DNA from: an uncultured bacterium
GTDB taxonomy: Bacteria; Electryoneota; AABM5-125-24; Hatepunaeales; Hatepunaeaceae
Direction: 5' to 3'
NCBI GenBank assembly: GCA_964484805.1
Contig: CAZAGU010000004.1
Location: 1 to 44,291 of the forward strand
Length of the DNA stretch: 44,291 bases
The notes beneath the pieces are model-generated. The model was not told where the DNA came from. It saw nothing but the letters and a program-made list of their open reading frames with translations, and searched no databases. The translations under genes and the position numbers were made by a program. This document shows positions 20,876 through 43,900 of this stretch, piece after piece (position 1 is the stretch's first letter; the number at the start of each line of letters is the position of its first letter).

Positions 20876-23800
20876 CTACTTCAGCATCACGACTTTCATC
20901 CTGTCGGAAACCGAATTACACTGAACTTCCACGAAGTAAATGCCACTGGTGAAGCTCTCGCCGTCAACATTTGCTGAAGCGACACCTGCTTCAAGTACAC
21001 CCAGCGATCTGGCTGTAATCTGCCGTCCGTTTACATCAAACACTGCCAGCTTAACTTCTCCGCGAAGCGGTAGGTTGAACGTCAGCTTTGTTTGATGGTT
21101 AAATGGGTTCGGGTAGGCGGATTGAATGCCAAACTTGGTCGGGATAGCATTGGCTTCATCCAGTGAAATGACCCAGAAGGAATCTTCAACCCATTCTGCT
21201 TTGCCTTGCAGACTTTCATACATTGCAGGCACGATTTCTTTCCCATCGTGAAGCACAATCCGCAATTCATCGCCAGAACGAGCGCCTTCAATCGCACTAG
21301 TCGTCGGGTCATCACCCCAGATTGCCACACCGGATTTGCTATCTGACAACACGCCGGAACCAACCAGCATATCGCCACTATACACACCGATTTCACCGGT
21401 CAAGCCTCTATCGTTGACCACAAGCAGGCTCATGTTTGAGCCAGTCGCAATGACTTGCGGAAGATAATGTGTGGATTGTTCAACAGTGCTCGCAACTTGG
21501 GCGCGCCTTTCTTCCATTGGTCTGAGCTGATAGCGAAGCTCCATATCGCCATCCATTTTAACCAGATAGCCTTGTCCTTCAGCCAGATCACCCATATTGC
21601 TGAAATCCCATTCCGGGTTGTAAAAATAGCCTCCGCCATCTTTGGCTAATATCAACTGGTCGCTGATGGCGGAAAATGCAATCATAGCATCCACAGATAT
21701 ACGGGGATAGTAGGAAATCAACTGCCAGCCATCAAGCAATGCGATCGGATCATCTGACATCACTGTTATCCCCTGAAGGAGCAATTCATCGGCGGATTCC
21801 AGCTTAAACATGTAGCCCATGGAAACCAACCATGGGTCCAAATTGCTAAAATCGTGCTCGGGTGAATAGAAATGACCTTCACCATCTTTCACCAGAAGCA
21901 GTGAACCATTGCCAACCATACTCTGCGTGATCTCGACAATATCGTCCGGGTCTGGTTGCAGATTGATCGACACCATATTCCAGCCGCGCTCCATTTCCAG
22001 AGTCCGTTCTGTCCAGACAGGACCCTCAACAACGTCAAACACAACAGGCATCACAAACTCGCCACCACTGGCATTATGATCGAAGATAAACATGCCTTCA
22101 AATGTGTCAAACGAGAGACCTTCTGCGTTCAGATTTACACTGAATTCCTGACTTCCGCCAGCTTCAATTTCGCCCGCTTCCGGCTCAATAGTAAACCAGC
22201 TCCGCTTGGAATCTAGATTCCAAATGTCAATGCGATCACCGCCAGCTTCATCAGACGTGCTCACTACACTTAGCAAAACCACGCTGTACTGGTCATATTG
22301 CTCCGTGATGGCGATGCTTTCTGGAGAACCACCAAGTTCATGATTTAGCACTCTGACTTCCTGAATCTGACCATTTCCCGGGTTGCATTTACTGATGGCT
22401 GGAATCAGTTCATCACCGTTGCGATGTTGAATGTAAAGGGGGAAGCCATCGGGGTCATCAGCCCAGTAAGCCAAGCCATAAAGGCGCAAGCCTTGCCGAT
22501 CGATTTGCATCTGTTCCTCGCCTTGGCGATCTACCGCCATGATGTCGCGAACAGTCATGGCTATCCAGAACCATTGCCGGTCGGGATCCCAGGCAATGCT
22601 GCTAATGGAATTCAACGGGCTTTCAAAGCTGGGTCCTGCCTCACCATCAAGTTCGATAGCATACACATGATCCTGCGCTGCACCCCAGATGTACTCACCA
22701 TCCCAAGTAAGATCGCGCATCTTTTCCCCCTCAGCAACTGGCTGTGGGAAAGTCTCAACCAGATCGCCACCCTCATTGAGCACGTAAATTACCGGATCGC
22801 GATCGTTTTCACCGGCTACATAGTAGAAGTCATTCACCCTCACAACACCCCGGACGCGGGAATCTTCAACTGTAGCGCCTGCCATGATAGACTCGCGCCA
22901 AGCCCCAGGTTCAACTTCCGCCTCTTCGATCAGTCGTTTGGAGATCGAGTACTCTAAAGTCCCATTGCCTTGGTTGGCGACGGTAAAGCTGGTCTCAACA
23001 TTGCCATCCAGACCTGTTTCACCTAAAATTTGCTGAGCGGATGGTTCAAATTCCGGATGATTCAAACTGAATTCGACCCAAAGGGAATCATTTTCTTCTA
23101 GCTCTAAGCCATCAATGGTAGAGGTATTATAACCAAGAAGCGAAGCACTCACAGAAAACTCACCACGAGGTCCATAAAGGAGGTAGAAGACACCTTCCTC
23201 GTCAGTGTCTATCCGGTGCCCCTGTGAGGTTTCAACTCTAACGCCTTCTAGTGGTGAATCATCATCAGCATTAGTGACAATGCCAGCCAACACGCCACCA
23301 TGATCTGGGCCTGTCATTTTTATTTCCAAGCCATAGTCACCGGCATTCTGATGAGAGAATCCTTCACCGTAACCATTGGATGACATCATCGACATAGGCA
23401 TACTAGAGTTAGTGCCGGCAATCGGCGGTGTTTCATCGCTACCAAATGTCCCGCCCTCAACCCAGTAATAAACGACAACTAAGCCTTCGCCGTCGTGAAT
23501 GGTGATTTGATCCTCTTCAGGAAGTTCAAATTCAACGTATTGGTTGGCATCGGTCTGAACAGTTCCTTCCCATTCTGGTTCAATCTCAATATCTTCTAAA
23601 TCCTGCCCTATCTCGAAGATATAAATCTTAAACAGAGCTTCCAGATTCTCCGCGGCAATTGCTGCCCGGAAATGCGTAATCCAAAGTGGAATAGGTCCAC
23701 CAGGGTGATCGAAGCGTATCGCCCAACCGTTGCCGGGCTGATAATTGGTCGCTCCTTCCAGATTGCCATCTGTGAAGCTTAGCCATTCGTCACGGCTTGT

Positions 23801-24877
23801 TTCCTGATCGAAAACAATTTGATCGAGCCCGTATGTGTCATTCTCATCATTGGCATCATCATCGGCATCAATGGTGACCCAGACAGTGTAAAGCCCAACA
23901 TCATCGCCGATTTCCCAGACATCTTCGCAGGCTACTTCAATCAGCCCGTCTTCATCAATGCCATCAACGTCAACGACACTTTCAAAAACGACATCATTAT
24001 CCATATCCCGGACGACAAATTCCACTTGGAATTCTTCAACTGCCGCTCCTTCGTTGGCGATTTCAGCGAAGAGATTCCGCTCGGAACCTGCACAGACAAC
24101 CCAGCGTCTGTCTTCCATCTCTTCGGCGTTATAAACTGAAGTTACAGCCAAATCGACGAATTCACCAGTGTATTCACCGTTAGCGCGAATAAACAGATCT
24201 CCACCAATCTGTGTCCAACCACCATGATCCTCCGCAACTTCAACTCTATAACAGCTGCGGTTAACATCCGAACCGCCATCCCAAACAATCCACCAGCCGG
24301 AACCTTCACCGTTGCCGGGATAGTCACCGCCAGGTGCAGGGCCGAAAATAATAGAAAAGCGCTCCCCGCCTTCAAATGACACTCGGTCATCCTCGTCAAA
24401 TTCAATCCAATGCCAATTGTTTTCCACGTTATCACCATCCCAGTCTCTCACCTCGTCTATGCGGCCTTCCCAGACAAGCTCGTCGAGATTGTGGTTGTCC
24501 TGATTTTCGCGGTAAACTAAAATATCACAGGGCGCATTAGGGTTTGGCCCTGTGTTGAGAGGCATGACACTTACGCCCCAAAGGTCAAATTCGGCATTGG
24601 GAGTGAAACTTACCCTTGCCCAGTAATTTACCCCAGTTGTAAGGGTGGCTGGATCAGAATTGTCGTAAAATATCCAGTCTTCGCCCGGATCATCACGAAC
24701 TGGGCCTCGTTGTGGGTTTTCGATGTCCGCGTTTTGGTTAAAATTCGCGGGATGAAATTCTCCCTCTCCATTACTATTAGTATAATCGAGAGTGACTAAG
24801 TTGCTTGCGTTAGCATCAGAAATGAATACAAATGCTAAGCTTAGTAGCAGAGTGAAAATAGAAAGTACTTTTCGCAT
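20876..24877 (-). CDS. Large acidic secreted protein with carboxypeptidase-regulatory-like/Ig domains, a beta-propeller-like region and a C-terminal T9SS type A sorting domain
   Basis: GGAGG RBS before ATG 24877 and a signal peptide; G.LAGIVT...PLEGVRV and GWNMVSINL repeats; C-terminal AYPNPFN...VFDVNGR...SGIYFV...KVVMLK. Confidence 0.88.
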   Translation of the reverse strand: MRKVLSIFTLLLSLAFVFISDANASNLVTLDYTNSNGEGEFHPANFNQNADIENPQRGPVRDDPGEDWIFYDNSDPATLTTGVNYWARVSFTPNAEFDLWGVSVMPLNTGPNPNAPCDILVYRENQDNHNLDELVWEGRIDEVRDWDGDNVENNWHWIEFDEDDRVSFEGGERFSIIFGPAPGGDYPGNGEGSGWWIVWDGGSDVNRSCYRVEVAEDHGGWTQIGGDLFIRANGEYTGEFVDLAVTSVYNAEEMEDRRWVVCAGSERNLFAEIANEGAAVEEFQVEFVVRDMDNDVVFESVVDVDGIDEDGLIEVACEDVWEIGDDVGLYTVWVTIDADDDANDENDTYGLDQIVFDQETSRDEWLSFTDGNLEGATNYQPGNGWAIRFDHPGGPIPLWITHFRAAIAAENLEALFKIYIFEIGQDLEDIEIEPEWEGTVQTDANQYVEFELPEEDQITIHDGEGLVVVYYWVEGGTFGSDETPPIAGTNSSMPMSMMSSNGYGEGFSHQNAGDYGLEIKMTGPDHGGVLAGIVTNADDDSPLEGVRVETSQGHRIDTDEEGVFYLLYGPRGEFSVSASLLGYNTSTIDGLELEENDSLWVEFSLNHPEFEPSAQQILGETGLDGNVETSFTVANQGNGTLEYSISKRLIEEAEVEPGAWRESIMAGATVEDSRVRGVVRVNDFYYVAGENDRDPVIYVLNEGGDLVETFPQPVAEGEKMRDLTWDGEYIWGAAQDHVYAIELDGEAGPSFESPLNSISSIAWDPDRQWFWIAMTVRDIMAVDRQGEEQMQIDRQGLRLYGLAYWADDPDGFPLYIQHRNGDELIPAISKCNPGNGQIQEVRVLNHELGGSPESIAITEQYDQYSVVLLSVVSTSDEAGGDRIDIWNLDSKRSWFTIEPEAGEIEAGGSQEFSVNLNAEGLSFDTFEGMFIFDHNASGGEFVMPVVFDVVEGPVWTERTLEMERGWNMVSINLQPDPDDIVEITQSMVGNGSLLLVKDGEGHFYSPEHDFSNLDPWLVSMGYMFKLESADELLLQGITVMSDDPIALLDGWQLISYYPRISVDAMIAFSAISDQLILAKDGGGYFYNPEWDFSNMGDLAEGQGYLVKMDGDMELRYQLRPMEERRAQVASTVEQSTHYLPQVIATGSNMSLLVVNDRGLTGEIGVYSGDMLVGSGVLSDSKSGVAIWGDDPTTSAIEGARSGDELRIVLHDGKEIVPAMYESLQGKAEWVEDSFWVISLDEANAIPTKFGIQSAYPNPFNHQTKLTFNLPLRGEVKLAVFDVNGRQITARSLGVLEAGVASANVDGESFTSGIYFVEVQCNSVSDRMKVVMLK

Positions 24878-24993
24878 GATTACCTCCAAATGTCTAGTGC
24901 GTTCATCAAAGTTGCGGACTCTATGCAAATAAGAAAAATCACATTTACAGGAAGGTCTGGCAATTACACAAGTAGAGTCAAAACTTTGTCTAA

Positions 24994-27363: not shown

Positions 27364-30300
27364 TCAAATTGTGTTCCGCCTGAACTTAGCTGAAATCTGA
27401 GTGAAAATTATCAACAAAATCGCAATTCCGATAAGCATCCAGCCGTTGATCTGATAAGACAAATCCTTGATAATGAGATATGGCTGGGCATAATCCAGCA
27501 GATGAAACACCATCGCGGCGATAATCAAATGCCAGGTCTTGCCTGTCATCAGCCACTTCGCGCCATAAGTGTAGATCAAGACCTTGAACAACGCACCCAC
27601 CATTGACCAAAGATATTCACCGTTCGAAGGATTGATGCCTTGCCTGAAATCATTGCCCGCGAACACAGCCACCGTGATAATAATTATCAGCCAGCGAAAC
27701 CAGCTTTTCCGTATCACATGAAACAGAATCGCCTGCGTAATCATCAATCCTGAGCCAAGCACAATTGACAGAAAAATCAGCCTGGTGAAATCGTGAAACC
27801 AGGGCAAGTACGACGTAGCTGATTCCACGACACTCAGCGGGAACAGATGCTTGGGCATATCAGCGACCGCCGTAAACTCATTGAAAATCCACGCTGAAGC
27901 TAACAGCAATCCGGCAAACGGGAGCACTCGCCACAAGTTCAAACTATTCGCGCCCGATTCAGATTTACCGCCATCTATTCCCATCCCACGCGCCAGACTT
28001 TCTGCCAGCGCAACCAGCACAACAGCACTTAAGGACGTGAATATGGTCAACATTCCGAAACGCATTATTTCCACAGTGTAGTAGGTGGGCAGGGGATTAC
28101 TTGAGTTATAATTCCAGTAAAATGTCGGCAGATTGTTCACCCAGCTCAGGCAAGAAGCGATAAAAACCACAGCCCCGGCAATGATACCATTTCGCCAGCG
28201 CAAATCATGCTTGACAAGCCTTTTTCCAAGATTAAGCACGCAGTACACCGCCATGCCTAACAACAGCCCGATCATCAACGCGCCAAGAATCGTGCTCAAC
28301 AAAGTCGTCTCCTTCTCGCGCCGCGTCCATGTTTCAGGAACATAAATTCCCCCCAGCCGCCGAGCAATCACCTCATCACCCTTGATATTCACATATCGGA
28401 CTAACTTAGCTTCAGCCACCACAGGTTCTGTCGTCTTCCACATAAAATAATGATCGACACGGTTCGGCTGTTGTTTGTCAGAAGCTGAGACCAGCTCGTA
28501 TTTCTGCCAGTCTGGCTCAATGCTTTTGAACGCCTGTTCGGCAATAACCTGAGCGGAATCCAGCGTCAGTTGGGCCCCAGCAAGTGAATCGGGGATTTCA
28601 TGCAACACATCATATATTCCATGAACTTTGTCAATGCTGACCTTGAAAGACTCCAGCTCGTCGGGCTTCTGGAAATTGATTAGCCATCGGGACATTGGCG
28701 CGCCGTGCTCGCCAAACAGCAGATATCGCGCCATCTCAAGGTCGCCAAATTTCTTCAGATAAGGGAGATTCCGGTTCAAACCTTTCTCAACTCCCGCCTC
28801 AAACTGCATATTATATTCAATATCGGTGACCGTCATCAGGTAGTCGTCGGGGTTGATCGCATATTTTTCAACAACTTGTTCCTTCGCCAACGCAACGGCT
28901 TCCGAGCGGCTGACGGTGGGCTGATAGGAATCGCCAAGATAATTCGAGTACGGCAGGAAGATAAACGCCATCCCGACTATGCCCAAGATCAGCGCTACCT
29001 TTTTCTTGCCAGGAGTCCAGTAGGACGCTTTGTCTTTGGCGGGTTCAATTTCAACCTTTACCGGCTTCTCACGGCGGAAAACCTGCTCCCACTGTGGCAG
29101 TTCTGGGTTTGCCTGATTAATGATCTCACCTTCGTCAGCAAAGCCACGTTTGCGCAAATAGACAATTCCCGCCCAGATGCCGGGAATGGCAAGCGCGCCA
29201 CAGACTATCAAACCGGATACCATAAGATAGGTGTTCGAAGATTGGAACAGAAACAAACCGATGAACACCGCATCAATCACAAAATGCCAGACCAGCGTCG
29301 CCCAGATGCCAAATCTTAGCATGACAACGCCTGCAATGATGCCGATGATTCCCACCTCAACGCCGCGTACGTAGCCGGGAATTTGAGCATAACTCGAATG
29401 CAAAAAACCCCACATAAAAGCCGGAATGATGACTGCCAGAACCACTGATTTGGTCAACTTGCGGAAGAATGACACTCCGAATAATCTGAACCAGAGTTCC
29501 TCAGTCAATGAAGCCCCTAAGGAAGCCGCAAGCGGCAATAGCCAGGGTAGGTAGGATGAAATCGAATTGCTGTAAGGAATATCCGCCGGCGCCCAGAAGC
29601 CAAGTTTTTCCCCAAAAACATAGAAGAATACCAAAAATCCAAAATGAAACGCCGCCAGCAGATAACCCATGAGGGTGGCTTGAAAAAACTCACGACTACG
29701 GTATCCTGTTCGGGAGAGAAGATGCGAAAAAGAAACCTTGAAGGGATTTTCGCCGCGGTATAGATACTCACCACCAGCAACTAACAGCAGAACTAACGCA
29801 CCTTTGGAAAATCCGCTAAGTAAACCAATTAAAATTTGTTGAGTCAGAAAAACCGTGTAGGAACTCGTTGTGTCAAGCCTAAACTCCAGCAGCGGAAGCA
29901 TGTTAATGCTATTCAGGAAATCAGCCATTGCCAGAATAATCGCCAACATTCCAGCAGTCTTCCAAGGTATCTGTCGTGCTTTCAGATGTTTCAGGAGGTA
30001 AATAAACACGACAATCAGCATCAAAAATGCGAACAAGTTGGCTATGGTTTGGAACAGATCATTCTGTGAACGAATTTTCTTGTACTGATGAATCCATTCC
30101 TGCGGAATATCTAGATACTTATGAAAGCTACCAATTTCAGCGCCCTGAACCGTGATGGACATTCGGTAAGGTGCATCGGCAACCTTGAAGTTCCGCATCT
30201 GATAGGTTAAATAATGATCTCGCCGCTCAGGTTGCTCTTTGTTGGAAGATTCAACCAACTCCCATTGGTCAAGATCAAGTCCTAAAACATTTCTGATGAA

Positions 30301-30771
30301 CGCTTCAGCAAGGATGACGGCGGTCGCTGTTTCCAGCTTAGGACCCGGCGAGGCTTCATCAATGAAGCGGGTAAAGCCTATGACCTTGCCGCTGGGGTCC
30401 ACCTTTACATAGTAACTGAGTTTTTGCTTGGGAATGATGTACCGGTTTGCCCAGTAATATAAATCTAGGGAGTCTCTCGCCAGCTCCGTCATTCTTTCGA
30501 CACCAAGCTCGCGTTGCAGGAACAACGCCGCTGTGCTCGCGCTACTGAAAATCGCCTCAGATCGAAATCCTTCGGTGGGAAAGTTTCGGTTTTCCAGAAA
30601 TGCTTTGGAAATTTCGATGGACTCATTGCGGGATATTTTTATATCAATCCCAACCTCAGGGAAAGCTTTCTGATAATTGAATACTCCGTAAACCAAAGCG
30701 AGCAGTGCAATTAGCGCTGACACAATAATAATCGTCTGATTTGGAATATTTTTGTGTGTGCTTGTTGTCAT
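27364..30771 (-). CDS. Large CPBP (Abi/CAAX) family intramembrane metalloprotease with an internal duplication
   Basis: EELWFR, FMWGFLHS and LVWHF motifs in the first half; the second half repeats the extracytoplasmic and TM units without these motifs. Confidence 0.85.
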   Translation of the reverse strand: MTTSTHKNIPNQTIIIVSALIALLALVYGVFNYQKAFPEVGIDIKISRNESIEISKAFLENRNFPTEGFRSEAIFSSASTAALFLQRELGVERMTELARDSLDLYYWANRYIIPKQKLSYYVKVDPSGKVIGFTRFIDEASPGPKLETATAVILAEAFIRNVLGLDLDQWELVESSNKEQPERRDHYLTYQMRNFKVADAPYRMSITVQGAEIGSFHKYLDIPQEWIHQYKKIRSQNDLFQTIANLFAFLMLIVVFIYLLKHLKARQIPWKTAGMLAIILAMADFLNSINMLPLLEFRLDTTSSYTVFLTQQILIGLLSGFSKGALVLLLVAGGEYLYRGENPFKVSFSHLLSRTGYRSREFFQATLMGYLLAAFHFGFLVFFYVFGEKLGFWAPADIPYSNSISSYLPWLLPLAASLGASLTEELWFRLFGVSFFRKLTKSVVLAVIIPAFMWGFLHSSYAQIPGYVRGVEVGIIGIIAGVVMLRFGIWATLVWHFVIDAVFIGLFLFQSSNTYLMVSGLIVCGALAIPGIWAGIVYLRKRGFADEGEIINQANPELPQWEQVFRREKPVKVEIEPAKDKASYWTPGKKKVALILGIVGMAFIFLPYSNYLGDSYQPTVSRSEAVALAKEQVVEKYAINPDDYLMTVTDIEYNMQFEAGVEKGLNRNLPYLKKFGDLEMARYLLFGEHGAPMSRWLINFQKPDELESFKVSIDKVHGIYDVLHEIPDSLAGAQLTLDSAQVIAEQAFKSIEPDWQKYELVSASDKQQPNRVDHYFMWKTTEPVVAEAKLVRYVNIKGDEVIARRLGGIYVPETWTRREKETTLLSTILGALMIGLLLGMAVYCVLNLGKRLVKHDLRWRNGIIAGAVVFIASCLSWVNNLPTFYWNYNSSNPLPTYYTVEIMRFGMLTIFTSLSAVVLVALAESLARGMGIDGGKSESGANSLNLWRVLPFAGLLLASAWIFNEFTAVADMPKHLFPLSVVESATSYLPWFHDFTRLIFLSIVLGSGLMITQAILFHVIRKSWFRWLIIIITVAVFAGNDFRQGINPSNGEYLWSMVGALFKVLIYTYGAKWLMTGKTWHLIIAAMVFHLLDYAQPYLIIKDLSYQINGWMLIGIAILLIIFTQISAKFRRNTI

Positions 30772-36838: not shown

Positions 36839-37957
36839 ATGATAACACGTCATGAGCTAAAAGAACTGGCAACCTACATGAACGAAGATGCTTTTTTTGT
36901 CAGTTTATACCTGAATGTTGATCCAAAGGACAACCCCAAAGATTCATGGCTTCTTCACTACAAAAATCTTGCCCGTGATACCATTTCAAAAACTAATGCT
37001 CAAGATCGTCCGATTATCGAAAAAGAACTCAAGAGGATCGAGAAATTCCTTTCCGATCGTCCTGACGGGCTTAAACGAGGACTGGTTATCATCAGTTGTC
37101 CAGAAAAGAATTTCTGGCGTGTTCACAATACAGCAATGCCATTTATAAATCAACTTGTCATCGAGCACGATCCATTTATCAAGCCACTCGCTTCAATGCT
37201 CGATTTATTCCAGAGGTATCTCGTTGTGGTTGTTGGGAAAACCAAAGCTAGAATATTGATCACTCGCATGGGCGAAATTGAGGAAGTTACCAAAGTTCTT
37301 CACAACACTGATAGTCTCGACTTTGATCCGAATCGTAGCGGCAGTTTGACGGATTCAGCATCACACTCCGAAAAAATGGACGAAAAAGTCTTCAGAATTG
37401 TCCACAAGGATGCTCTTAAAGACATCGAGAAAGTGATGGCTGAAGAAGAAATGAAAAGAATTATTCTTGCTGGAACTGACCGAGGCAGAGCACAGTTCAA
37501 GGATGTGCTTCCAAACCAAATCAAAGAGCGTGTGGTTGCCGAGCTATCAGTTGATCGAAACGGCTCCGACCATGAAATTCTTGAGAAACTGATTCCTATT
37601 ATGAAGGATGTTGAATATCAGTTTGAGAGAAAAGCCCTTGATGAACTATTCGATCAAGAGAAGAAAATTGTCCTTGGACTCTCTGATGTTTTAACGGCTC
37701 TCCAACAGGGCAATGTCCATAAGATGTATGTGCTGACACATGTGAAAGAATCCGGCATGGTCTGCAATCAATGCGGCGCGCTGACTCCAGTGCGCGACAG
37801 TAAGTGTCCATATTGCAACAATGAAATGCACAGCGTGGAATTCATGCTTGATCTGGCAATTCAGAAAGCTATGGATCTTGGCGCTCGTGTAGATATGCTG
37901 GAACATGCTCCCCGTCTTGAGAAGGCGGGCGGTATCGGAGCATTGCTTAGATACTAA
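36839..37957 (+). CDS. Bacterial archaeo-eukaryotic release factor (baeRF, eRF1/pelota-like) family protein with a Zn ribbon
   Basis: N-terminal VSLYLNVDP, PFIKPL, IILAG, GL.DVL.ALQQG.V, CNQC...CPYC and a C-terminal GGIGALLRY. Confidence 0.85.
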   Translation: MITRHELKELATYMNEDAFFVSLYLNVDPKDNPKDSWLLHYKNLARDTISKTNAQDRPIIEKELKRIEKFLSDRPDGLKRGLVIISCPEKNFWRVHNTAMPFINQLVIEHDPFIKPLASMLDLFQRYLVVVVGKTKARILITRMGEIEEVTKVLHNTDSLDFDPNRSGSLTDSASHSEKMDEKVFRIVHKDALKDIEKVMAEEEMKRIILAGTDRGRAQFKDVLPNQIKERVVAELSVDRNGSDHEILEKLIPIMKDVEYQFERKALDELFDQEKKIVLGLSDVLTALQQGNVHKMYVLTHVKESGMVCNQCGALTPVRDSKCPYCNNEMHSVEFMLDLAIQKAMDLGARVDMLEHAPRLEKAGGIGALLRY

Positions 37958-37970
37958 ACCCAACCGGGTT

Positions 37971-38001
37971 AAAAGCTGCCCTTCGGGGCAGCTTTTATTT
38001 T
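37971..38001 (+). terminator. Intrinsic terminator
   Basis: AAAAGCTGCCCC-TTCG-GGGCAGCTTTT followed by ATTTT. Confidence 0.88.
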
Positions 38002-38124
38002 ACTCCATCATTACAAATAAGCTTATCAATTAATTTATCATCCTAACTCTAAATACACTATAATTTGTAAACTCGCTCTTTTCTCCAGAAACTTCTTTGC
38101 AATTTTCCTGAAGAGAATACATAT

Positions 38125-38162
38125 TGACCACATGGTCATTATGGTCATTGACCAGTTGGTCA
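38125..38162. promoter_or_regulatory. Two tandem TetR-type operators
   Basis: TGACC-ACAT-GGTCA (38125-38138) and TGACC-AGTT-GGTCA (38149-38162), plus an extra GGTCA half-site, just before the tetR start. Confidence 0.8.
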
Positions 38163-38175
38163 TTATGAGGTTTGC

Positions 38176-38844
38176 ATGAAAATTTCCAGCACCGACACAT
38201 TCCAGAAAATCAGTCAGGAAAAGCGCGATACCGTTTTTCAAGCGGCAGTACGCGAGTTTGCATCCAATGGATACAATAAAGCATCCATGAATGTTATCTC
38301 CAAAACCGCGGGTATTGCAAAGGGCAGTTTGTTCCAATATTTCGTGAACAAGAGCGGGCTTTTTCAGGCTGTTGTGGATTACACCGCCAATCAGGTTCGT
38401 GATTATCTGCGCGCCGCCCGTGTCGATACAATTGGTTGGGATTTTTACGCCCGGCTTGAGCATATAATGCGCCAAGGCTTTATGTTCATCGAAAACCACC
38501 CGCGTCTGGCAAAAATCTACTTCAACCTTTTACAATCCGACGACGTGCCCGACGGAGCGGAATGGATTTCCAGTCTTAATCTTCAGAGCCGCAAATTTCT
38601 TCAGAAGCTGATCGAAGAAGGCATCGGGCTTGAGGAAGTTTCGCCGGAAATTGACGTTGAACGCATAAGTTACTTGATAAACCTGTTGCTCGAAGATTTG
38701 CTTAGAGCATATTTCAGCAAGCACATCGCCCAAAATCTTGGGCTGTTTCAAGCTGACATTTCTGAGCGCGAAATATGGATTGCCACGCTTGTGAATCTGG
38801 TGAAATTTGGAATTTCAAACCCAGTTCATGCCGAAACGCCTTAG
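38176..38844 (+). CDS. TetR/AcrR family transcriptional regulator
   Basis: AVREFASNGYNKASMNVISKTAGIAKGSLFQYFVNKSGLF helix-turn-helix. Confidence 0.95.
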   Translation: MKISSTDTFQKISQEKRDTVFQAAVREFASNGYNKASMNVISKTAGIAKGSLFQYFVNKSGLFQAVVDYTANQVRDYLRAARVDTIGWDFYARLEHIMRQGFMFIENHPRLAKIYFNLLQSDDVPDGAEWISSLNLQSRKFLQKLIEEGIGLEEVSPEIDVERISYLINLLLEDLLRAYFSKHIAQNLGLFQADISEREIWIATLVNLVKFGISNPVHAETP

Positions 38845-38916
38845 CTTGAATGTTTACCTACGATTATACATGAACTTAGTCAAACATTATGGAAAAGTTT
38901 GCCTTGAAAGCATCAC

Positions 38917-38938
38917 ATTATGACCAGTCGGTCATAAT
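38917..38938. promoter_or_regulatory. TetR-type operator upstream of the ABC-menG-menA operon
   Basis: ATTATGACC-AGTC-GGTCATAAT, a palindrome with 9-bp arms and the same core as the tetR sites. Confidence 0.82.
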
Positions 38939-39039
38939 AATATTATTTCAGGAATCTACACACACTTTAAGGATAATTTTCACGGATATTTTAAACGATA
39001 TCCGAGGTGCTGACAACAGTTTATTTTGTTGGGAGAATA

Positions 39040-39990
39040 ATGAAGTTTTCTAAACTCGCCGTGTTTCTTCTTATTGTTGCGTTCGCTGCAGGGTGCGCCA
39101 AGAAAGGCAATCTGCCGAACACAGCTCAGGACATAGCCTTTGGCGTGCTGCCTGTTATGCAAGCTTTGCCGTTGTTCATCGCTCAGGAAAAGGGATATTA
39201 TGACCAGTCGGTCATCAATGTGAAGGTTGTTCCTTTCAACACTGCCGCTGAAAAAGACATCGCAATGTCCACCGGAAACATCGTCGGACAGTTTGCCGAC
39301 CTCTTCACTCCGGTTGTAATCGAGGGCAATGGTCGCAACATCACCATCGTTGCCACCAACTACAACACCACCTTCGACCGCCGCATGTTTGCGGTGTTAG
39401 CTTCACCCAAGAGCAGTTTTGTTGCTGTGTCCAATCTTGCCGGCATTCCCATTGGATTGTCGAGTAATACAGTGTTAGATTACGTTACTGAGACTTTACT
39501 TGTTCGGGGTGGTTTGCCTATAGATCAGGTTGAGCGTGTCGAAGTGAAAAACATTGGCATGAGATTCCAGATGCTAATGTCCGGACAGATCCAAGCCGCC
39601 ACATTGCCAGAACCGCTGGTCACTGCGGCTGTTGCTCAAGGCGCAACCGTCATTGTTGACGATGCAGGTTTCGCCGCCAGCCAGACAGTGCTGTTGTTTA
39701 CTGATGAATTTGCCCAGCAGCACCCGAAAGAGATCAAGGCATTCCTCGTTGCTGTTCAGAAGGCTCAGAATTTCATCAACGAGCACCCCGATTCTACCAG
39801 AACCTACATGGTGAAATATGTTCGGCTTCCAGATCCACTAAAGGACAAATACCCTGTGCCACGCTTCCCGCCATTAACCGTTCCCGGCGAAAAGGAAATG
39901 ACTGAAGCTGTGGATTGGCTACACCAGAAAGGCGCTATTCCTAAGATACTGACATACAAAGACTTAGTTGATGGCTCATTCCTCCCCTGA
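39040..39990 (+). CDS. NitT/TauT/SsuA-type ABC substrate-binding lipoprotein
   Basis: GGAG RBS before ATG 39040, lipobox AAGC, and LPLFIAQEKGY and GQIQAATLPEP motifs. Confidence 0.88.
   Translation: MKFSKLAVFLLIVAFAAGCAKKGNLPNTAQDIAFGVLPVMQALPLFIAQEKGYYDQSVINVKVVPFNTAAEKDIAMSTGNIVGQFADLFTPVVIEGNGRNITIVATNYNTTFDRRMFAVLASPKSSFVAVSNLAGIPIGLSSNTVLDYVTETLLVRGGLPIDQVERVEVKNIGMRFQMLMSGQIQAATLPEPLVTAAVAQGATVIVDDAGFAASQTVLLFTDEFAQQHPKEIKAFLVAVQKAQNFINEHPDSTRTYMVKYVRLPDPLKDKYPVPRFPPLTVPGEKEMTEAVDWLHQKGAIPKILTYKDLVDGSFLP
39197..39215. promoter_or_regulatory. Intragenic copy of the TetR-type operator
   Basis: ATTATGACCAGTCGGTCAT is identical over 19 bp to 38917-38935 and lies 280 bp downstream of it. 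Confidence 0.7.
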
Positions 39991-40732
39991 TCTGCTTACT
40001 GTAAGCAATGTCTGCAAAACCTACAGCAACGGCAATGAAACCGTTGAGGCTGTGAGCAATATCTCTCTTGCCTTGCCGACTGGTGATTCCATCGCCCTTG
40101 TCGGGCAATCCGGCTGTGGGAAATCTACCTTGCTGTTATTGTTGGCAGGGCTTGAAGCGGTCAACGAGGGGCGCATACTATTCGAAGACAAGCCCATTTT
40201 AGATCATCGCCGCGAGATTGCCCTTGTGTTGCAGGATTATGGGCTTTTCCCTTGGAAAAGTGTCCAGAAAAACGTCGAACTTGGGCTGAAAATCCGCAGT
40301 GTGGACAACGCCACCGCCAGAATCAGCGACATTTTAACCGAACTGGGCATAGGCGACAAAGCCAAAGTCTATCCCCAGCAGCTTTCCGGCGGTCAGAAAC
40401 AACGAGTCGCCTTGGCTCGCGCAATGGTGCTGAAACCGCGCCTGCTCTTGCTTGATGAGCCATTCGCGGCTCTCGACACTCTAACCCGCGAACGCCTGCA
40501 AGACCTGTTGCTTGAATCATGGGCGCGCTCAAAATTTGGAATGATACTCGCCACCCACAATGTTCAGGAAGCCGTCATGCTCGGTCGCAGAATAGTAGTG
40601 ATGACCAAATCGCCCGGACGCATCACCGACATCATCGACAATCCTCACTGCGGTGAGTTCGATTTCCGCGGTAGCGATCTGTTTTACCAGCAAACTCGCA
40701 CAGTCCGGCACAGCCTTGAGGCGGCAGAATGA
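39968..40732 (+). CDS. NitT/TauT-type ABC ATPase
   Basis: GQSGCGKST, LFPWKSV..NV, YPQQLSGGQKQR and LLDEPFAALD motifs. Confidence 0.93.
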   Translation: MMAHSSPDLLTVSNVCKTYSNGNETVEAVSNISLALPTGDSIALVGQSGCGKSTLLLLLAGLEAVNEGRILFEDKPILDHRREIALVLQDYGLFPWKSVQKNVELGLKIRSVDNATARISDILTELGIGDKAKVYPQQLSGGQKQRVALARAMVLKPRLLLLDEPFAALDTLTRERLQDLLLESWARSKFGMILATHNVQEAVMLGRRIVVMTKSPGRITDIIDNPHCGEFDFRGSDLFYQQTRTVRHSLEAAE

Positions 40733-41469
40733 AACAATGGCGCGAATACACTTTCGCTGTGGTTGCGACTCTGGTTGTCTGGCAGATGCTTGCCATGCTC
40801 ACAGGCAAGTTTGTCATTGCACCGCCGCTGGCAGTCGCCTCGCTACTATTCACCGAGCTTCAGACGGTAGTTTTCTGGCATCACCTCAGCATGTCACTCT
40901 TCAGAATCGTCTCGGCGCTTTCGCTGGCGTTCATAACTGCCGTGCCTTTCGGGCTATTTCTTGGCTTGAGCGCGCGCGCTGACCGACTGGCGAAGCCGTT
41001 CATCTACCTCTCCTATCCCCTGCCGAAAATTGTGCTGTTGCCTGTCGTCATGTTGATCTTCGGGCTTGGTGAAGTCAGCAAGATCGTGATGCTCTGGATG
41101 ATCTTGTTTTTTCAGTTGTTAATCACCACTCGCGATGCCGCCCGCTCAGTTTCAAAATCCGCCCGCTACTCCCTGCTCAGTCTTGGCGGTGGTAAACGGC
41201 ATCTTTTTGTGCATGTCATTTTTCCATCCTGCCTGCCTTCAATTCTTACCGCGCTTCGCATCACAACCGGAACCGTGGTCGCGGTGCTTTTCTTTGTGGA
41301 ATCCATCGGAACGAGCTGGGGCATGGGATTTTACATCATTGATGCCTGGGGACGCGGGAATATCACGCAAATTTTCGTCGGCATGGTTGTACTTGCGGGG
41401 ATTGGCATCATACTTTATGAGCTGTTCGACATTTTTGAACGCATTTTTTGCAAATGGACTAAACTTTGA
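40729..41469 (+). CDS. NitT/TauT-type ABC permease
   Basis: HL..SL.RI, YPLPKIVLLP, VIFPSCLPSILTALR and GMG..I motifs. Confidence 0.92.
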   Translation: MKQWREYTFAVVATLVVWQMLAMLTGKFVIAPPLAVASLLFTELQTVVFWHHLSMSLFRIVSALSLAFITAVPFGLFLGLSARADRLAKPFIYLSYPLPKIVLLPVVMLIFGLGEVSKIVMLWMILFFQLLITTRDAARSVSKSARYSLLSLGGGKRHLFVHVIFPSCLPSILTALRITTGTVVAVLFFVESIGTSWGMGFYIIDAWGRGNITQIFVGMVVLAGIGIILYELFDIFERIFCKWTKL

Positions 41470-42194
41470 ACGATAAACCCCTCGCTGAGTGGTCAGATTC
41501 CGAACGGATTGACACCGTTAAAAAGATTTTCAACGAGATCACGCCAGATTACGACCGCATGAACCGCATCATGTCCGCCCGGCAAGATGTTCTCTGGCGT
41601 AAATTCCTCGTCAAACGCATCGACAAGAACGCCCAGAATCTGCTCGATGTCGCCACCGGTACTGGAGATATCGCACTCGATCTGGCGAAAGCTTTCCCCA
41701 CGGCGCAAGTCATCGGTTCAGACTTCGTGCGGCGGATGATGGACGTGGCGCTGGTTAAAACGGGTGAACGCAAACTGTCAGACCGCGTGTTTTACGCCGC
41801 TGGCGATGCCATGCTCCTCCCTTTTGAAGACAACCTCTTCGACGCGGCGACCATCGCCTTCGGAATGCGGAACATCCCAAACCGGCTCGGCGCCCTGGTG
41901 GAAATGGCGCGTGTCGTCAAACCCGGCGGCAAAGTGCTCGTACTGGAAATGACCTTCCCGCGCAACCTGAGAATGCGGAAATTTTTCTTCTGGTATCTGA
42001 ATAATATCATCCCGCTGCTTGGGCGCATCATCGCCCGCAACAACGCCGCCTATAGCTACCTTCCTGAGTCAATCCAAGGCTTTCTCCATCCTGATGAACT
42101 GAGCGACCTGTTCACCCAAGCCGGCATGACTGAAGTCCGCGCCTTTCCGCTGACCTTCGGCATAACATACCTCCATGAAGGAGTTGTAGTGTGA
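41466..42194 (+). CDS. menG: Demethylmenaquinone methyltransferase (MenG/UbiE)
   Basis: F..I...YDRMN..MS..QD..WR, LDVATGTGDIA, FDAATIAFGMRN, RVVKPGG and AYSYLPESI motifs. Confidence 0.9.
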   Translation: MNDKPLAEWSDSERIDTVKKIFNEITPDYDRMNRIMSARQDVLWRKFLVKRIDKNAQNLLDVATGTGDIALDLAKAFPTAQVIGSDFVRRMMDVALVKTGERKLSDRVFYAAGDAMLLPFEDNLFDAATIAFGMRNIPNRLGALVEMARVVKPGGKVLVLEMTFPRNLRMRKFFFWYLNNIIPLLGRIIARNNAAYSYLPESIQGFLHPDELSDLFTQAGMTEVRAFPLTFGITYLHEGVVV

Positions 42195-43081
42195 CGCGGC
42201 TGAAGTATTGGGTTCAGGCGAGTCGCGCCAAGTTTTTCATCGCGACCATCATCCCGCTGGCGTTAGGCGGAACCATCGCCGCTAAAGCCGGCGCGTGGGA
42301 TGCAGGGCTATGGATGGTCATCTTTCTGGCATCGTTTCTGGTGCATCTCAACACCAATCTCGCCAACGATTTTTTCGAGCTTGACACAGGCGTTGACGGC
42401 GGCAATTCCATCGGCGGAAGCCGGGTCATTCAAGAGGGCAAGATTTCATCCTCCGAGATTCGCAATTTCATGCTCATCGCCTATTTTATCTCGCTGTTGT
42501 GCGGGTTGTATCTGCTCTGGGAGACGCGCCTGTGGTGGCTAATCGGGGTGATGCTGCTCTCGTTCTTCTCGAGCCTGTTTTACACCGCGCCGCCGATCAG
42601 ATATGGCTATCATGGCATGGGCGAGCTTATGGTTGGGCTGAACATGGGGCCCATCATGGTCGCGGGCACGGCTTCAACGCTGATCGGACGGTGGTATATG
42701 CCATCGCTGTGGATTTCGTTGCCGATTGGGATTTTAGTCGCCTTTATCCTGTATTATCAATCGCTTTCGGACATTGACGATGACCGCCGCGTGAACAAGC
42801 GCACGATTGCGGTTCGGCTGGGGCGTGAGAATATCCTCATCGTCTATTGGATGTTTGCCATTGGCACATCGCTGTCGATAGTAACGCTGTTTATTTTTGG
42901 ATATGTTCATCCGGTGGCTTTGCTGTCGGCGGTTACACCCTATATATTGAAAGACTTAGCCGGCGAAATCAAGACCACGCGCGACATCCGGTCGCTCCAC
43001 GACAAAGGCAAACCCATCCGCCAGTTCTACGTCATCAACGGCATGATCCTCATCTTTTCGGTGATGCTGAAGTTGGGATAA
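42191..43081 (+). CDS. menA: 1,4-dihydroxy-2-naphthoate prenyltransferase (MenA/UbiA family)
   Basis: W..ASR, NLANDFF....GVD, GGSRVI, YTAPP...GYHGMGE and DIDDD...NKRTIAVRLG motifs. Confidence 0.85.
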   Translation: MTRLKYWVQASRAKFFIATIIPLALGGTIAAKAGAWDAGLWMVIFLASFLVHLNTNLANDFFELDTGVDGGNSIGGSRVIQEGKISSSEIRNFMLIAYFISLLCGLYLLWETRLWWLIGVMLLSFFSSLFYTAPPIRYGYHGMGELMVGLNMGPIMVAGTASTLIGRWYMPSLWISLPIGILVAFILYYQSLSDIDDDRRVNKRTIAVRLGRENILIVYWMFAIGTSLSIVTLFIFGYVHPVALLSAVTPYILKDLAGEIKTTRDIRSLHDKGKPIRQFYVINGMILIFSVMLKLG

Positions 43082-43150: not shown

Positions 43151-43900
43151 ATGTTTAAAAACATTCTTCAAGTTTTAGGTAAAATAGCGTTGCTGTTTTG
43201 CATAGTATTAGTCATTAAGTTAATAAACACTGGACTGAAGACAATTTACCCGATTCAGTATATGTATGATTGGGTGAGAATGACTATAGGTTTATCGCTG
43301 GAGATGGTCTTCGGCGTTGCCGTGATTGCTATCCTCTCAAAGGGCAAATATTCTGACTGGGGTTTTAGAAAATGCAAGTTCAACGTCTGTCTGAAAGCCT
43401 TTGGCTGGGCACTGATTCTGTCTTTGATTGAGTGTGTAATTGTAATCACACTTGTTTTCTTTCTCTTTCACATTGGCAGTTTCAGTTACACCTACCGTTA
43501 CACACCCGAAGAATACCCGTCCTTCGCCTATTTTGTGATTTTAATAACAGTTATTGCGCCACCTGCTGAAGAAATTCTGTTCAGAGGCTTTTTTTAGACA
43601 TTTCTTCGCTCGGTTAATATTTTCACCGTCACCATTTTTCGCAAAACGCTGTCCTTCCCGGTAATTTTCACAGCGTTTTCCTTCGCCTTAGTGCATATCT
43701 CAAACTTCCGACATGCAGAAATTTTGCTATTCGTATTTTTCATCACAAACGTATTTATACATGCACTTTTCTTCGGTTACTTTCGGGAGAAATCCGGCAG
43801 TTTGCTTCCTTCAATAATTATGCACTCGACAACAAATCTGTTTTTATTCTTTCTGCTGTATCAAATGGTTTATGTGTTCGAGCATTTTTATCATGCTTAA
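43151..43900 (+). pseudogene. CPBP (Abi/CAAX) protease interrupted by an in-frame TAG at 43595-43597
   Basis: EEILFRGFF*TFLR... continues in the same frame through FALVH and SGSLLPSIIMH to TAA at 43900. Confidence 0.82.

What the first reader, a model, noticed from the sequence alone, without database searches (positions are those of the whole stretch)
38125..43081. TetR-controlled NitT/TauT-type ABC transporter coupled to menG-menA: putative menaquinone-precursor salvage system
Seen: the SBP, ATPase, permease, menG and menA genes overlap one another in a chain and sit behind a TetR gene with shared operators. No ring-synthesis genes (menFDHCEB, mqn) are in the window. Knowledge: MenA prenylates 1,4-dihydroxy-2-naphthoate and MenG methylates the product, which are the two steps needed if the ring is imported. 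This ABC family is usually annotated as nitrate/sulfonate transport. Inference: a dedicated importer of DHNA or a related naphthoquinone, with a TetR that senses it, supporting quinone cross-feeding.
Basis: partly seen in the sequence, partly recalled or inferred. Interest (0 to 1): 0.75.

Follow-up and report, generated by a model that had tools for sequence, protein, structure and literature searches.

The report
Menaquinone head-group salvage transporter cassette
A repressor-controlled uptake system is fused in one operon to the last two enzymes of vitamin K2 (menaquinone) synthesis in a bacterium that lacks the genes for making the quinone ring, so it most likely scavenges the ring from its neighbours.

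Summary
The operon is TetR, an exported NMT1/SsuA-type binding protein, an ABC ATPase, a permease, MenG/UbiE and a MenA-like prenyltransferase. The last five genes overlap, and four copies of the palindrome TGACCAnnYGGTCA lie around TetR and the binding-protein gene.

- **Linkage:** in 39 of 42 homologous loci with enough downstream DNA, a MenA of one distinct clade follows the transporter. These loci come from Desulfomonilaceae, Syntrophales, Desulfarculia, UBP7 and Zixibacteria.
- **Missing ring pathways:** the window's genome (94% complete) has no MenB or MenD, and no MqnA/D or MqnC. Its only MenA and MenG are the cassette's.

In 70 Desulfomonilaceae genomes the cassette and the futalosine pathway largely exclude each other (4 have both, 45 cassette only, 16 futalosine only, 5 neither). 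Cultured Desulfomonile is grown with added 1,4-naphthoquinone.

Best reading (about 0.65): a horizontally mobile salvage module that imports an unprenylated naphthoquinone head group, then prenylates and methylates it. The ligand is unproven, with DHNA favoured. I found no such importer in the literature I searched.

Main caveat: 47 genomes of the window's own phylum also lack ring genes yet have no cassette.

The parts
37970..37997 (+). Intrinsic-terminator-like hairpin plus T-run after the upstream baeRF/ribosome-hibernation-like gene. It marks the 5' boundary of the unit.
   Evidence: 12-bp stem, 6 GC pairs, T-tail, inverted repeat I6, 100% complementary
38035..38064 (+). Sigma-70-like promoter candidate for tetR (TTATCA-18-TATAAT)
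   Evidence: This is a consensus match only: 4 such sites in the region against 2.6 expected.
38123..38167 (+). Two tandem palindromic operators, O1 (TGACCACATGGTCA, 38125-38138) and O2 (TGACCAGTTGGTCA, 38149-38162), 24 nt apart and directly upstream of the TetR start codon
   Evidence: The same motif lies within 250 nt upstream of TetR in 30 of 31 related TetR-bearing loci.
38176..38844 (+). TetR-family repressor (222 aa)
   Evidence: TetR_N, 48.9 bits. No NCBIfam equivalog reaches its cut-off. Closest solved structure is 3nrg, of unknown function, E 2e-23. A TetR lies directly upstream of the SBP gene in 31 of 55 related loci.
38917..38938 (+). Operator O3 (ATTATGACCAGTCGGTCATAAT), overlapping a promoter-like site at 38912-38941 upstream of the SBP gene
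39040..39990 (+). Exported (lipoprotein-type) substrate-binding protein of the NMT1/SsuA/TauA/ThiY fold (316 aa). The ORF opens at GTG 39007.
   Evidence: NMT1 62.1 bits; SsuA_fam 103.2 bits, below its cut-off of 163.5. AlphaFold model with pLDDT 91.4; fold matches SsuA, TauA, ThiY, the thiamin SBP and PqqT at 15-19% identity; 358 homologues.
39201..39214 (+). Fourth operator-like site (TGACCAGTCGGTCA), inside the SBP coding region. Not conserved in relatives.
   Evidence: In 742 kb of related loci only 4 of 50 sites lie outside the promoter zones.
39968..40732 (+). ABC ATPase (SsuB/TauB-like)
   Evidence: ABC_tran 123.3 bits; best NCBIfam matches are the sulfonate and taurine ATPases, all below cut-off
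40729..41469 (+). ABC importer permease (BPD_transp_1, TauC/SsuC-like)
41466..42194 (+). Demethylmenaquinone methyltransferase MenG/UbiE. It is the only copy over cut-off in the genome.
   Evidence: TIGR01934 239.1 bits against 158.35; NF001244 226.1 against 216
42191..43081 (+). MenA-like UbiA prenyltransferase of a distinct, transporter-linked clade. It is the only quinone-type prenyltransferase in the genome.
   Evidence: best match NF004751, 148.8 bits against a cut-off of 264; the other three UbiA paralogues are of other kinds; a clade of 49 transporter-linked MenA, SH-aLRT 100. N56, D60, D69, D194 and D198 are invariant.

Best explanation
This is a self-contained menaquinone head-group salvage module.

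1. The exported binding protein captures a soluble, unprenylated naphthoquinone-type ring made by other organisms. The most likely ligand is 1,4-dihydroxy-2-naphthoate (DHNA). 1,4-naphthoquinone or its quinol, or a close analogue, is also possible.
2. The ATPase and permease import it.
3. The cassette's own MenA-clade enzyme prenylates it at the membrane.
4. MenG methylates the product to menaquinone.

TetR represses its own promoter through two tandem operators, and the transporter promoter through an operator that overlaps it. It is presumably released by the ring compound or a related quinone.

The module moves horizontally among anaerobes and stands in for de novo ring synthesis.

- **Shown:** gene content, gene overlaps, operators, conserved linkage, phyletic pattern, absence of known ring-pathway markers.
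- **Inferred:** ligand, direction of regulation, MenA substrate.
For: **(1) Operon architecture.** The genes are translationally coupled by overlaps.

**(2) Conserved linkage.** 58 SBP-homologue loci were fetched.
- MenA lies downstream on the same strand in 39 of the 42 loci with at least 3300 nt downstream.
- MenA starts 1500-2314 nt after the SBP stop in 41 of the 44 loci that have it.
- MenG is present in 15 of 40 loci, and TetR in 31 of 55.

**(3) Strict co-occurrence of the two parts.**
- In the window's phylum the same 6 of 79 genomes carry the SBP and the cassette-type MenA (53-69% identity).
- In Desulfomonilaceae all 44 genomes with cassette-type MenA are among the 49 with the SBP. 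None of the 21 SBP-negative genomes has it.

**(4) A separate MenA clade.** All 49 transporter-linked MenA form one clade (SH-aLRT 100, branch length 1.44). It is separate from the MenB-linked MenA and from the other MenA-like proteins of the same phylum (quick tree).

**(5) The window's genome depends on the cassette.**
- It lacks MqnA/D, MenB, MenD and MqnC.
- Its only MenG and only quinone-type prenyltransferase are in the cassette.
- It does have quinone-dependent machinery: 2 NrfD-family hits over cut-off and 2 NuoH-type hits.

**(6) Complementarity with the futalosine pathway in 70 Desulfomonilaceae genomes**.

| | Mqn present | Mqn absent |
|---|---|---|
| SBP present | 4 | 45 |
| SBP absent | 16 | 5 |

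- MenB is over cut-off in 0 of 70.
- Fisher p = 3e-8. This overstates the case because the genomes are related.

**(7) Other lineages.**
- 0 of 5 cassette genomes (G079-G083) have MqnA/D or MenB over cut-off.
- 0 of 5 SBP-positive genomes in a Syntrophales family of 18 have them.

**(8) Physiology in print.**
- Desulfomonile tiedjei DCB-1 and a Desulfomonile enrichment are grown with added 1,4-naphthoquinone (PMC7773648, passage read).
- Taurinivorans muris does not grow without it (PMC10507020, passage).

**(9) Precedent in the fold family.** The SBP fold family already includes cofactor and precursor scavengers: ThiY, a thiamin SBP, and the PQQ-binding PqqT.

**(10) A dedicated regulator.** The operator is conserved upstream of TetR in 30 of 31 loci. 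46 of 50 sites in 742 kb lie in the promoter zones.

**(11) Signs of acquisition.** Cassette GC is 52.3%, the 98.7th percentile of 4-kb windows in the genome. GC3 is 0.55-0.71 against 0.37-0.46 in the flanking genes.
Against: - **No ligand evidence.** The SBP is only 15-19% identical to any solved SBP, and none of those binds a naphthoate.
- **The MenA may not use DHNA.** It scores below every NCBIfam MenA cut-off and forms its own clade, so its aromatic substrate may differ.
- **Absence of ring genes is not specific to the cassette in the window's phylum.** 47 of 79 genomes there lack MenB, MqnA/D and the cassette. Yet across the phylum 73 of 79 have a MenA-like gene and 68 of 79 a MenG over cut-off. 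The SBP-versus-MenB association in this phylum gives p = 0.17. An unknown ring pathway or another uptake route must therefore exist in those genomes, and could also exist in the window's genome.
- **Some genomes carry both systems.** Four Desulfomonilaceae genomes have both the cassette and Mqn, or five if a 28-bit hit is counted.
- **The genome is a 355-contig draft** at 94% completeness. MenF, MenC, MenE, MenH, MqnB and MqnE were not searched.
- **1,4-naphthoquinone crosses membranes unaided** (established chemistry, not tested here), so an importer is not obviously needed for that compound.
- **Three loci lack MenA despite having room:** L060 (48% identity), L062 and L064 (36-37%).
Confidence: 0.65

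Rival explanations
1. The architecture is as described, but the imported head group is not a DHNA-type naphthoate. It could be 1,4-dihydroxy-6-naphthoate from futalosine-pathway neighbours, a benzoquinone precursor, or an environmental naphthoquinone. The divergent MenA clade would then be specialised for that compound and might yield a quinone other than standard menaquinone.
For: - The MenA is below all MenA equivalog cut-offs and sits on a long separate branch.
- The cassette always brings its own prenyltransferase, even into genomes that already have a MenA-like gene (G007, G020, G028, G034) or a futalosine pathway (G120, G139, G146, G147). This suggests a substrate the resident enzymes do not take.
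Against: - Every best family match of the prenyltransferase is a DHNA prenyltransferase model, and none is MqnP or UbiA.
- The only tailoring enzyme ever found in the cassette is MenG/UbiE. That suffices for menaquinone but not for ubiquinone or plastoquinone.
- No UbiD/UbiX-type decarboxylase was seen in the cassettes. It was not searched for genome-wide.
Confidence: 0.15
2. The quinone ring is made in the cell by a still unknown third pathway. The ABC system would then import something else the late steps need, or an unrelated nutrient such as a sulfonate or a thiamine precursor, and would merely be co-transcribed.
For: - 47 genomes of the window's phylum have no known ring pathway and no cassette, while MenA-like and MenG genes are near-universal in that phylum. 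This is compatible with an undiscovered ring route.
- The closest HMMs for the transporter are the sulfonate and taurine systems.
Against: - An unrelated nutrient transporter would not stay glued to one MenA clade through transfers across at least five lineages (39 of 42 loci).
- It would not be anticorrelated with the futalosine pathway.
- The SBP misses the SsuA family cut-off (103.2 against 163.5).
Confidence: 0.12
3. Chance or annotation artefact: an ordinary sulfonate or nitrate ABC operon that happens to lie next to menG and menA in this one genome.
For: Source databases name the homologues 'NitT/TauT family' or 'MetQ/NlpA family' proteins.
Against: Conserved synteny, overlapping genes, strict co-occurrence and a conserved dedicated operator.
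Confidence: 0.02

Closest known systems
ThiXYZ/ThiY-type and thiamin-binding ABC importers (PDB 3ix1, 4nmy)
   Same: Same SBP fold (Foldseek E about 3e-17, TM 0.67-0.71). Same logic: a TauT/NitT-type ABC importer that salvages a cofactor precursor instead of making it.
   Different: Only 15-16% identity. Their ligands are pyrimidines or thiamin. They are not fused to quinone enzymes and have no TetR.
PqqT, the PQQ-binding periplasmic protein (PDB 9b1u, 9ooz)
   Same: Same fold family (E about 1e-16 to 1e-15, 18% identity). It scavenges a quinone cofactor.
   Different: It takes up a finished cofactor, not a head group that is then prenylated. There is no linkage to MenA or MenG.
SsuABC and TauABC sulfonate and taurine importers
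   Same: Best HMM and fold matches for all three transporter parts.
   Different: All equivalog cut-offs are missed (SBP 103.2 against 163.5; ATPase 196 against 395; permease 92-94 against 295-342). No sulfur-assimilation genes are adjacent.
'menA + menG only' quinone-precursor auxotrophs (gut bacteria, PMC4746308; naphthoquinone-requiring Desulfomonile, PMC7773648; Taurinivorans, PMC10507020)
   Same: The same genotype and physiology: the late steps are present, the ring steps are absent, and growth depends on an external naphthoquinone or DHNA.
   Different: No transporter has been assigned in these cases. PMC4746308 (passages read) says the import genes 'remain to be annotated'. Here a candidate importer is physically coupled to the late enzymes.
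Canonical MenA (DHNA polyprenyltransferase) and animal UBIAD1 (PDB 8djk)
   Same: UbiA fold with conserved Asp-rich motifs (N56, D60, D69, D194, D198). UBIAD1 is the only solved relative (E 8.5e-12). From recall, UBIAD1 prenylates an imported, non-carboxylated naphthoquinol.
   Different: A separate clade, 26-37% identical to the other MenA-like proteins of the same phylum. Always linked to the transporter.

Membership tests
SBP-dependent ABC importer of the NitT/TauT (NMT1/SsuA-like) type | Extracytoplasmic binding protein with an NMT1/SsuA-type class II periplasmic-binding-protein fold | tested here: met
   NMT1 62.1 bits and NMT1_2 60.6 bits, both over cut-off. Model pLDDT 91.4. Top fold matches are SsuA, TauA and ThiY. 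N-terminal signal with AAGC lipobox. No signal-peptide predictor was run.
SBP-dependent ABC importer of the NitT/TauT (NMT1/SsuA-like) type | BPD_transp_1 permease plus ABC_tran ATPase encoded alongside the SBP | tested here: met
   (71.2 and 123.3 bits); adjacent overlapping genes
Aliphatic sulfonate, taurine or nitrate transporter (SsuABC/TauABC/NrtABC equivalogs) | Scores above the curated NCBIfam cut-offs | tested here: not met
   SBP: TIGR01728 103.2 against 163.5. ATPase: 196.2 against 395 and 188.1 against 357. Permease: 92.4 against 342 and 70.7 against 347.
MenA (1,4-dihydroxy-2-naphthoate polyprenyltransferase) | UbiA-superfamily membrane prenyltransferase with two Asp-rich motifs | tested here: met
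   PF01040 96.6 bits against 34.2. N56, D60, D69, D194, D198 and K203 are invariant in 20 cassette MenA sequences.
MenA (1,4-dihydroxy-2-naphthoate polyprenyltransferase) | Score above a curated MenA equivalog cut-off, or membership of the clade of MenB-linked MenA | tested here: not met
   Best scores are 148.8 against 264 and TIGR00751 92.1 against 102.15. It forms a separate clade from the MenB-linked MenA of the same phylum. Every top family match is nevertheless a MenA model.
MenA (1,4-dihydroxy-2-naphthoate polyprenyltransferase) | Uses DHNA as the aromatic acceptor | not testable with these tools
   Needs an enzyme assay.
MenG/UbiE C-methyltransferase | Score above the family cut-off | tested here: met
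   TIGR01934 239.1 against 158.35. NF001244 226.1 against 216. PF01209 198.7 bits.
TetR-family repressor with palindromic operators | N-terminal TetR helix-turn-helix domain, and inverted-repeat sites at its own and its target promoter | tested here: met
   TetR_N 48.9 bits. 4 sites against 0.48 expected. Conserved in 30 of 31 loci. DNA binding and ligand were not tested.
Classical (Men) or futalosine (Mqn) de novo menaquinone pathway in this genome | Presence of the ring-forming markers MenB and MenD, or MqnA/D and MqnC | tested here: not met
   The genome is 94% complete in 355 contigs. The other Men and Mqn genes were not searched.

The most novel reading that the evidence does not exclude
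This would be the first dedicated importer for a menaquinone head group, packaged with its own specialised prenyltransferase (sometimes also a methyltransferase) and a ligand-responsive TetR, as a mobile 'quinone salvage cassette'.

Its spread is wide. It is present in 49 of 70 Desulfomonilaceae species genomes, and also in Syntrophales, Desulfarculia, UBP7, Zixibacteria and the window's own small phylum. That would mean a large share of sediment anaerobes are naphthoquinone auxotrophs that respire on rings made by their neighbours. It would also explain the long-known 1,4-naphthoquinone requirement of cultured Desulfomonile.
Probability: 0.6. Interest if true: 0.8.

Novelty: new variant of a known kind. 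Interest (0 to 1): 0.72.

Why it matters
Exchange of quinone precursors between microbes has been proposed from 'menA/menG-only' genomes and from growth-factor requirements, but no uptake system has been identified. PMC4746308 says so explicitly (passages read). PMC13685792 calls menaquinone supply in Smithellaceae 'unresolved' (passages read).

- **A concrete gene set to test.** The cassette supplies a candidate SBP ligand, a TetR/operator pair that could serve as a biosensor, and a MenA clade that may accept imported rings.
- **A genomic marker.** It could flag quinone auxotrophy in uncultured anaerobes.
- **Help with cultivation.** Adding DHNA or naphthoquinone to media may bring such organisms into culture.
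- **Ecology.** It frames respiratory quinones as a shared good in sediments.

Tried and rejected
- **RNA evidence.** The look-up of sequencing runs listed one DNA holder (a marine metagenome, probably the source) and no RNA holder.
- **Earlier notes of this scan.** Nothing was found by place, sequence or words.
- **Ligand from structure.** The tools do not expose model coordinates, and DHNA is not an available ligand for complex prediction. No pocket analysis or docking was done, and complex prediction was not used.
- **PDB sequence search with the SBP profile.** It gave only distant hits, the best being 3qsl at E 1e-12. The closest solved TetR relative, 3nrg, has no known ligand.
- **Context of the other MenA-like genes.** I looked around four such genes in MenB-less genomes of the phylum (L069-L072) for a hidden ring pathway or another transporter. 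Nothing recurred. One locus has an EamA transporter and a CPBP protease beside the gene.
- **Careful maximum-likelihood tree.** It did not finish in 300 s, so the quick tree is reported. In that call I wrongly labelled L009 as belonging to the window's phylum. Its MenA groups with a Desulfomonilaceae row, so the 'ownphylum_cassette, 1 change' line of that output should be disregarded.
- **Literature searches.**
  - The phrases DHNA transporter/uptake/import/importer and naphthoquinone/menadione transporter gave one unrelated fungal paper.
  - Broader term sets showed no description of such an importer in the titles and abstract starts listed, or in the four papers I opened.
  - The library lacks most subscription journals. 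DeWeerd et al. 1990 was not read; it is cited only through PMC7773648.
- **Identity of the phylum.** I did not determine it. Its record titles say only 'uncultured bacterium'.

Full report
**What is there**

On the + strand, a terminator-like hairpin (37970-37997) closes the upstream baeRF/ribosome-hibernation-like gene. The window then encodes six genes:

| Gene | Coordinates | Evidence |
|---|---|---|
| TetR repressor | 38176-38844 | TetR_N domain |
| Substrate-binding protein (SBP) | 39040-39990 | NMT1/NMT1_2 domains; begins MKFSKLAVFLLIVAFAAGC |
| ABC ATPase | 39968-40732 | ABC_tran |
| Permease | 40729-41469 | BPD_transp_1 |
| MenG/UbiE methyltransferase | 41466-42194 | TIGR01934, 239.1 bits against 158.35 |
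| MenA-like UbiA prenyltransferase | 42191-43081 | all best family matches are DHNA prenyltransferase models, but all are below cut-off (148.8 against 264; 92.1 against 102.15) |

The last five genes overlap head to tail: 20-23 nt at the first junction, then ATGA, TTGA and GTGA overlaps.

The palindrome TGACCAnnYGGTCA occurs twice in tandem right before the TetR start (38125, 38149). It occurs once over a promoter-like site before the SBP gene (38921) and once inside that gene (39201). That is four sites against 0.48 expected, and none of 100 shuffles reached the observed count.

**The transporter**

The SBP model is confident (pLDDT 91.4). It superposes on SsuA, TauA, ThiY, a thiamin-binding SBP, PqqT and THI5 at 15-19% identity.

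No curated transporter family accepts any of the three parts. This is a TauT/NitT-type importer of unassigned specificity.

All 15 homologue N-termini I printed are hydrophobic leader-like sequences, and 30 of 120 match a lipobox pattern. No signal-peptide predictor was run. An exported SBP together with a BPD_transp_1 permease argues for import, and against a cytoplasmic PBP-fold enzyme such as MqnA or THI5.

**Linkage to quinone genes**

The SBP has 358 homologues. A profile scan of one genome per species returned 58 loci. Their record titles name Desulfomonilaceae/Desulfomonile, Syntrophaceae/Syntrophales, Desulfarculia, Desulfobacterales, UBP7/'Planctomycetales' and Zixibacteria. Two distant loci come from Anaerolineae and Methanosarcinales. 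tblastn with the window's proteins gave these counts:

- MenA lies downstream on the same strand in 39 of the 42 loci with at least 3300 nt of downstream DNA.
- The exceptions are L060 (48% identity) and the two distant loci L062 and L064 (36-37%).
- MenA starts 1500-2314 nt after the SBP stop in 41 of the 44 loci that have it.
- MenG is in the cassette in 15 of 40 loci. It lies between the permease and MenA, or after MenA in the Syntrophales type.
- A TetR lies directly upstream in 31 of 55 loci.
- 30 of those 31 carry the same operator within 250 nt upstream of TetR, and 46 of the 50 operator sites in 742 kb lie in such promoter zones.

The transporter-linked MenA proteins form one clade (49 rows, SH-aLRT 100, stem length 1.44). 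It is distinct from the MenB-linked MenA and from the other MenA-like proteins of the window's own phylum. This is a quick tree, because the careful search did not finish. I also mislabelled L009 in that call. The catalytic Asp-rich positions are invariant.

**Does the host need it?**

The window's genome is 3.75 Mb in 355 contigs, 94% complete and 1.3% contaminated.

- **Ring pathways:** no MqnA/D, no MenD, no MenB over cut-off (best 119.9 against 342.7) and no MqnC.
- **Other UbiA paralogues:** the three others resemble GGGP-type, decaprenyl-phosphate phosphoribosyl-type and an unassigned enzyme. None resembles MqnP, UbiA or MenA.
- **MenG:** the cassette copy is the only one over cut-off.
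- **Quinone users:** NrfD-family and NuoH-type membrane subunits are present.

All recognisable menaquinone biosynthesis in this organism therefore sits in this operon, and it begins at prenylation.

**Phyletic pattern in the window's phylum (79 species genomes)**

- The SBP occurs in 6 genomes, and the cassette-type MenA (53-69% identity) occurs in exactly the same 6.
- MqnA/D is absent from all 79.
- MenB is confined to two families: 26 of 79 genomes, none of them cassette genomes.

**Phyletic pattern in Desulfomonilaceae (70 genomes)**

- 49 have the SBP.
- 44 have the cassette-type MenA, and all 44 are among the 49.
- 20 have a clear MqnA+MqnD pair.
- None has MenB over cut-off.

| | Mqn present | Mqn absent |
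|---|---|---|
| SBP present | 4 | 45 |
| SBP absent | 16 | 5 |

If two single hits of 27-28 bits are counted, the table becomes 5/44/17/4. Fisher p is 3e-8, which overstates the case because the genomes are related.

**Phyletic pattern in other lineages**

- In a Syntrophales family of 18 genomes, 5 have the SBP and none of those has MenB or Mqn. Two SBP-negative genomes have MenB over cut-off, and four more score 314-322 bits.
- Cassette genomes from UBP7 (a complete chromosome) and Desulfarculia also lack both markers.

**Mobility**

- Cassette GC is 52.3%, the 98.7th percentile of 4-kb windows in a 47.1 ± 2.5% genome. GC3 is 0.55-0.71 against 0.37-0.46 in the flanking genes.
- In the tree, the window's MenA groups with G005, G007 and G020 of its phylum (support 99). 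G028 and G034 fall elsewhere, among Desulfomonilaceae rows on an unresolved backbone.
- A sporadic distribution (6 of 79) combined with a foreign composition indicates horizontal acquisition of the whole unit.

**Mechanism proposed**

The steps are capture of a soluble ring by the SBP, ATP-driven import, prenylation by the cassette MenA, and methylation by MenG (the cassette's copy, or the host's where the cassette lacks one).

TetR autoregulates and gates the transporter promoter, and release by the ring compound is the simplest model.

I favour DHNA over free 1,4-naphthoquinone for three reasons.
- ABC/SBP systems typically serve polar or charged solutes at low concentration.
- The frequent presence of MenG argues for an unmethylated ring.
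- The best family matches of the prenyltransferase are DHNA enzymes.

The separate MenA clade, and the fact that the cassette brings its own prenyltransferase into genomes that already have one, leave a different ring open. I put that at about 0.15.

**Caveats**

- Nothing here measures binding or transport.
- 47 genomes of the window's phylum lack MenB, Mqn and the cassette, although across the phylum 73 of 79 have a MenA-like gene and 68 of 79 a MenG over cut-off.
  - Within that phylum, 'no ring genes' therefore does not distinguish cassette carriers (p = 0.17).
  - Either another uptake route or an unknown ring pathway exists.
  - The neighbourhoods of four such MenA-like genes gave no clue.
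- The genome is a draft, and not every Men and Mqn gene was searched.

**Comparison with what is known**

- **Physiology.** Cultures of D. tiedjei DCB-1 and a Desulfomonile enrichment are supplemented with 1,4-naphthoquinone 'based on DeWeerd et al. 1990' (PMC7773648, passages). Taurinivorans muris does not grow without it (PMC10507020, passages).
- **Genomics.** 'menAG-only' gut genomes were proposed to use external DHNA, with importers that 'remain to be annotated' (PMC4746308, passages). Menaquinone supply in Smithellaceae is called 'unresolved' (PMC13685792, passages).
- **Searches.** Phrase and term searches found no description of a DHNA or naphthoquinone importer. The library omits most subscription journals.

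I therefore rate this as a new functional variant of a known transporter kind, coupled in a new way to a new MenA clade.

**Verdict**

- Observation: confirmed.
- Interpretation: supported by every computable test, with the ligand unproven.
- Confidence in the salvage-module reading: 0.65.
- Interest: 0.72.

Noticed in passing
window 43151-43900 (+): The CPBP/Rce1-like intramembrane protease gene directly downstream of menA is interrupted by one in-frame TAG (43595-43597), right after a run of seven T. The EExxxR motif lies before the stop and the C-terminal His-containing part follows in the same frame. It could be a nonsense mutation or a sequencing error. In G032 a MenA-like gene is also followed by a CPBP protease (L069), but CPBP is not conserved next to the cassette in the 58 loci.
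   Followed up: partly
own phylum, e.g. L069-L072, G-handles of families f1, f2, f3, f5, f6, f9: 47 of 79 genomes of the window's phylum have no MenB, no MqnA/D and no cassette. Yet a MenA-like gene (26-37% identical to the window's) is found in 73 of 79 genomes of the phylum, and a MenG over cut-off in 68 of 79. This points to an unrecognised ring pathway or another uptake route.
   Followed up: partly
window 36839-37957 (+): A bacterial eRF1-like protein (baeRF family 10). Its best NCBIfam match is the MSMEG_1130-family ribosome hibernation factor, far below cut-off (109 against 480 bits). It lies between pdxST and the cassette.
   Followed up: no
window 20876-24928 (-): A 1350-aa protein with a Por_Secre_tail (type IX secretion sorting) domain. 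This hints that the host belongs to the FCB group of phyla, whereas the cassette's closest relatives are in Desulfobacterota-type lineages.
   Followed up: no
window 27364-30771 (-): A 1135-aa protein whose only recognised domain is an Rce1-like CPBP protease module at residues 409-502.
   Followed up: no
G082:C21:641413-642180, G130:C1:1720696-1721463, and G159, G164, G165, G168: MenB-like crotonases scoring 311-322 bits, just under the MenB cut-off of 342.7, in Desulfomonilaceae and Syntrophales genomes. From recall, they may be BadI-type ring-cleaving hydrolases of benzoyl-CoA degradation rather than MenB. This was not tested.
   Followed up: no
window 39201-39214 (+): A fourth operator-like palindrome, identical in sequence to the one before the SBP gene, lies about 160 nt inside the SBP coding region. 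It is not conserved in related loci.
   Followed up: partly
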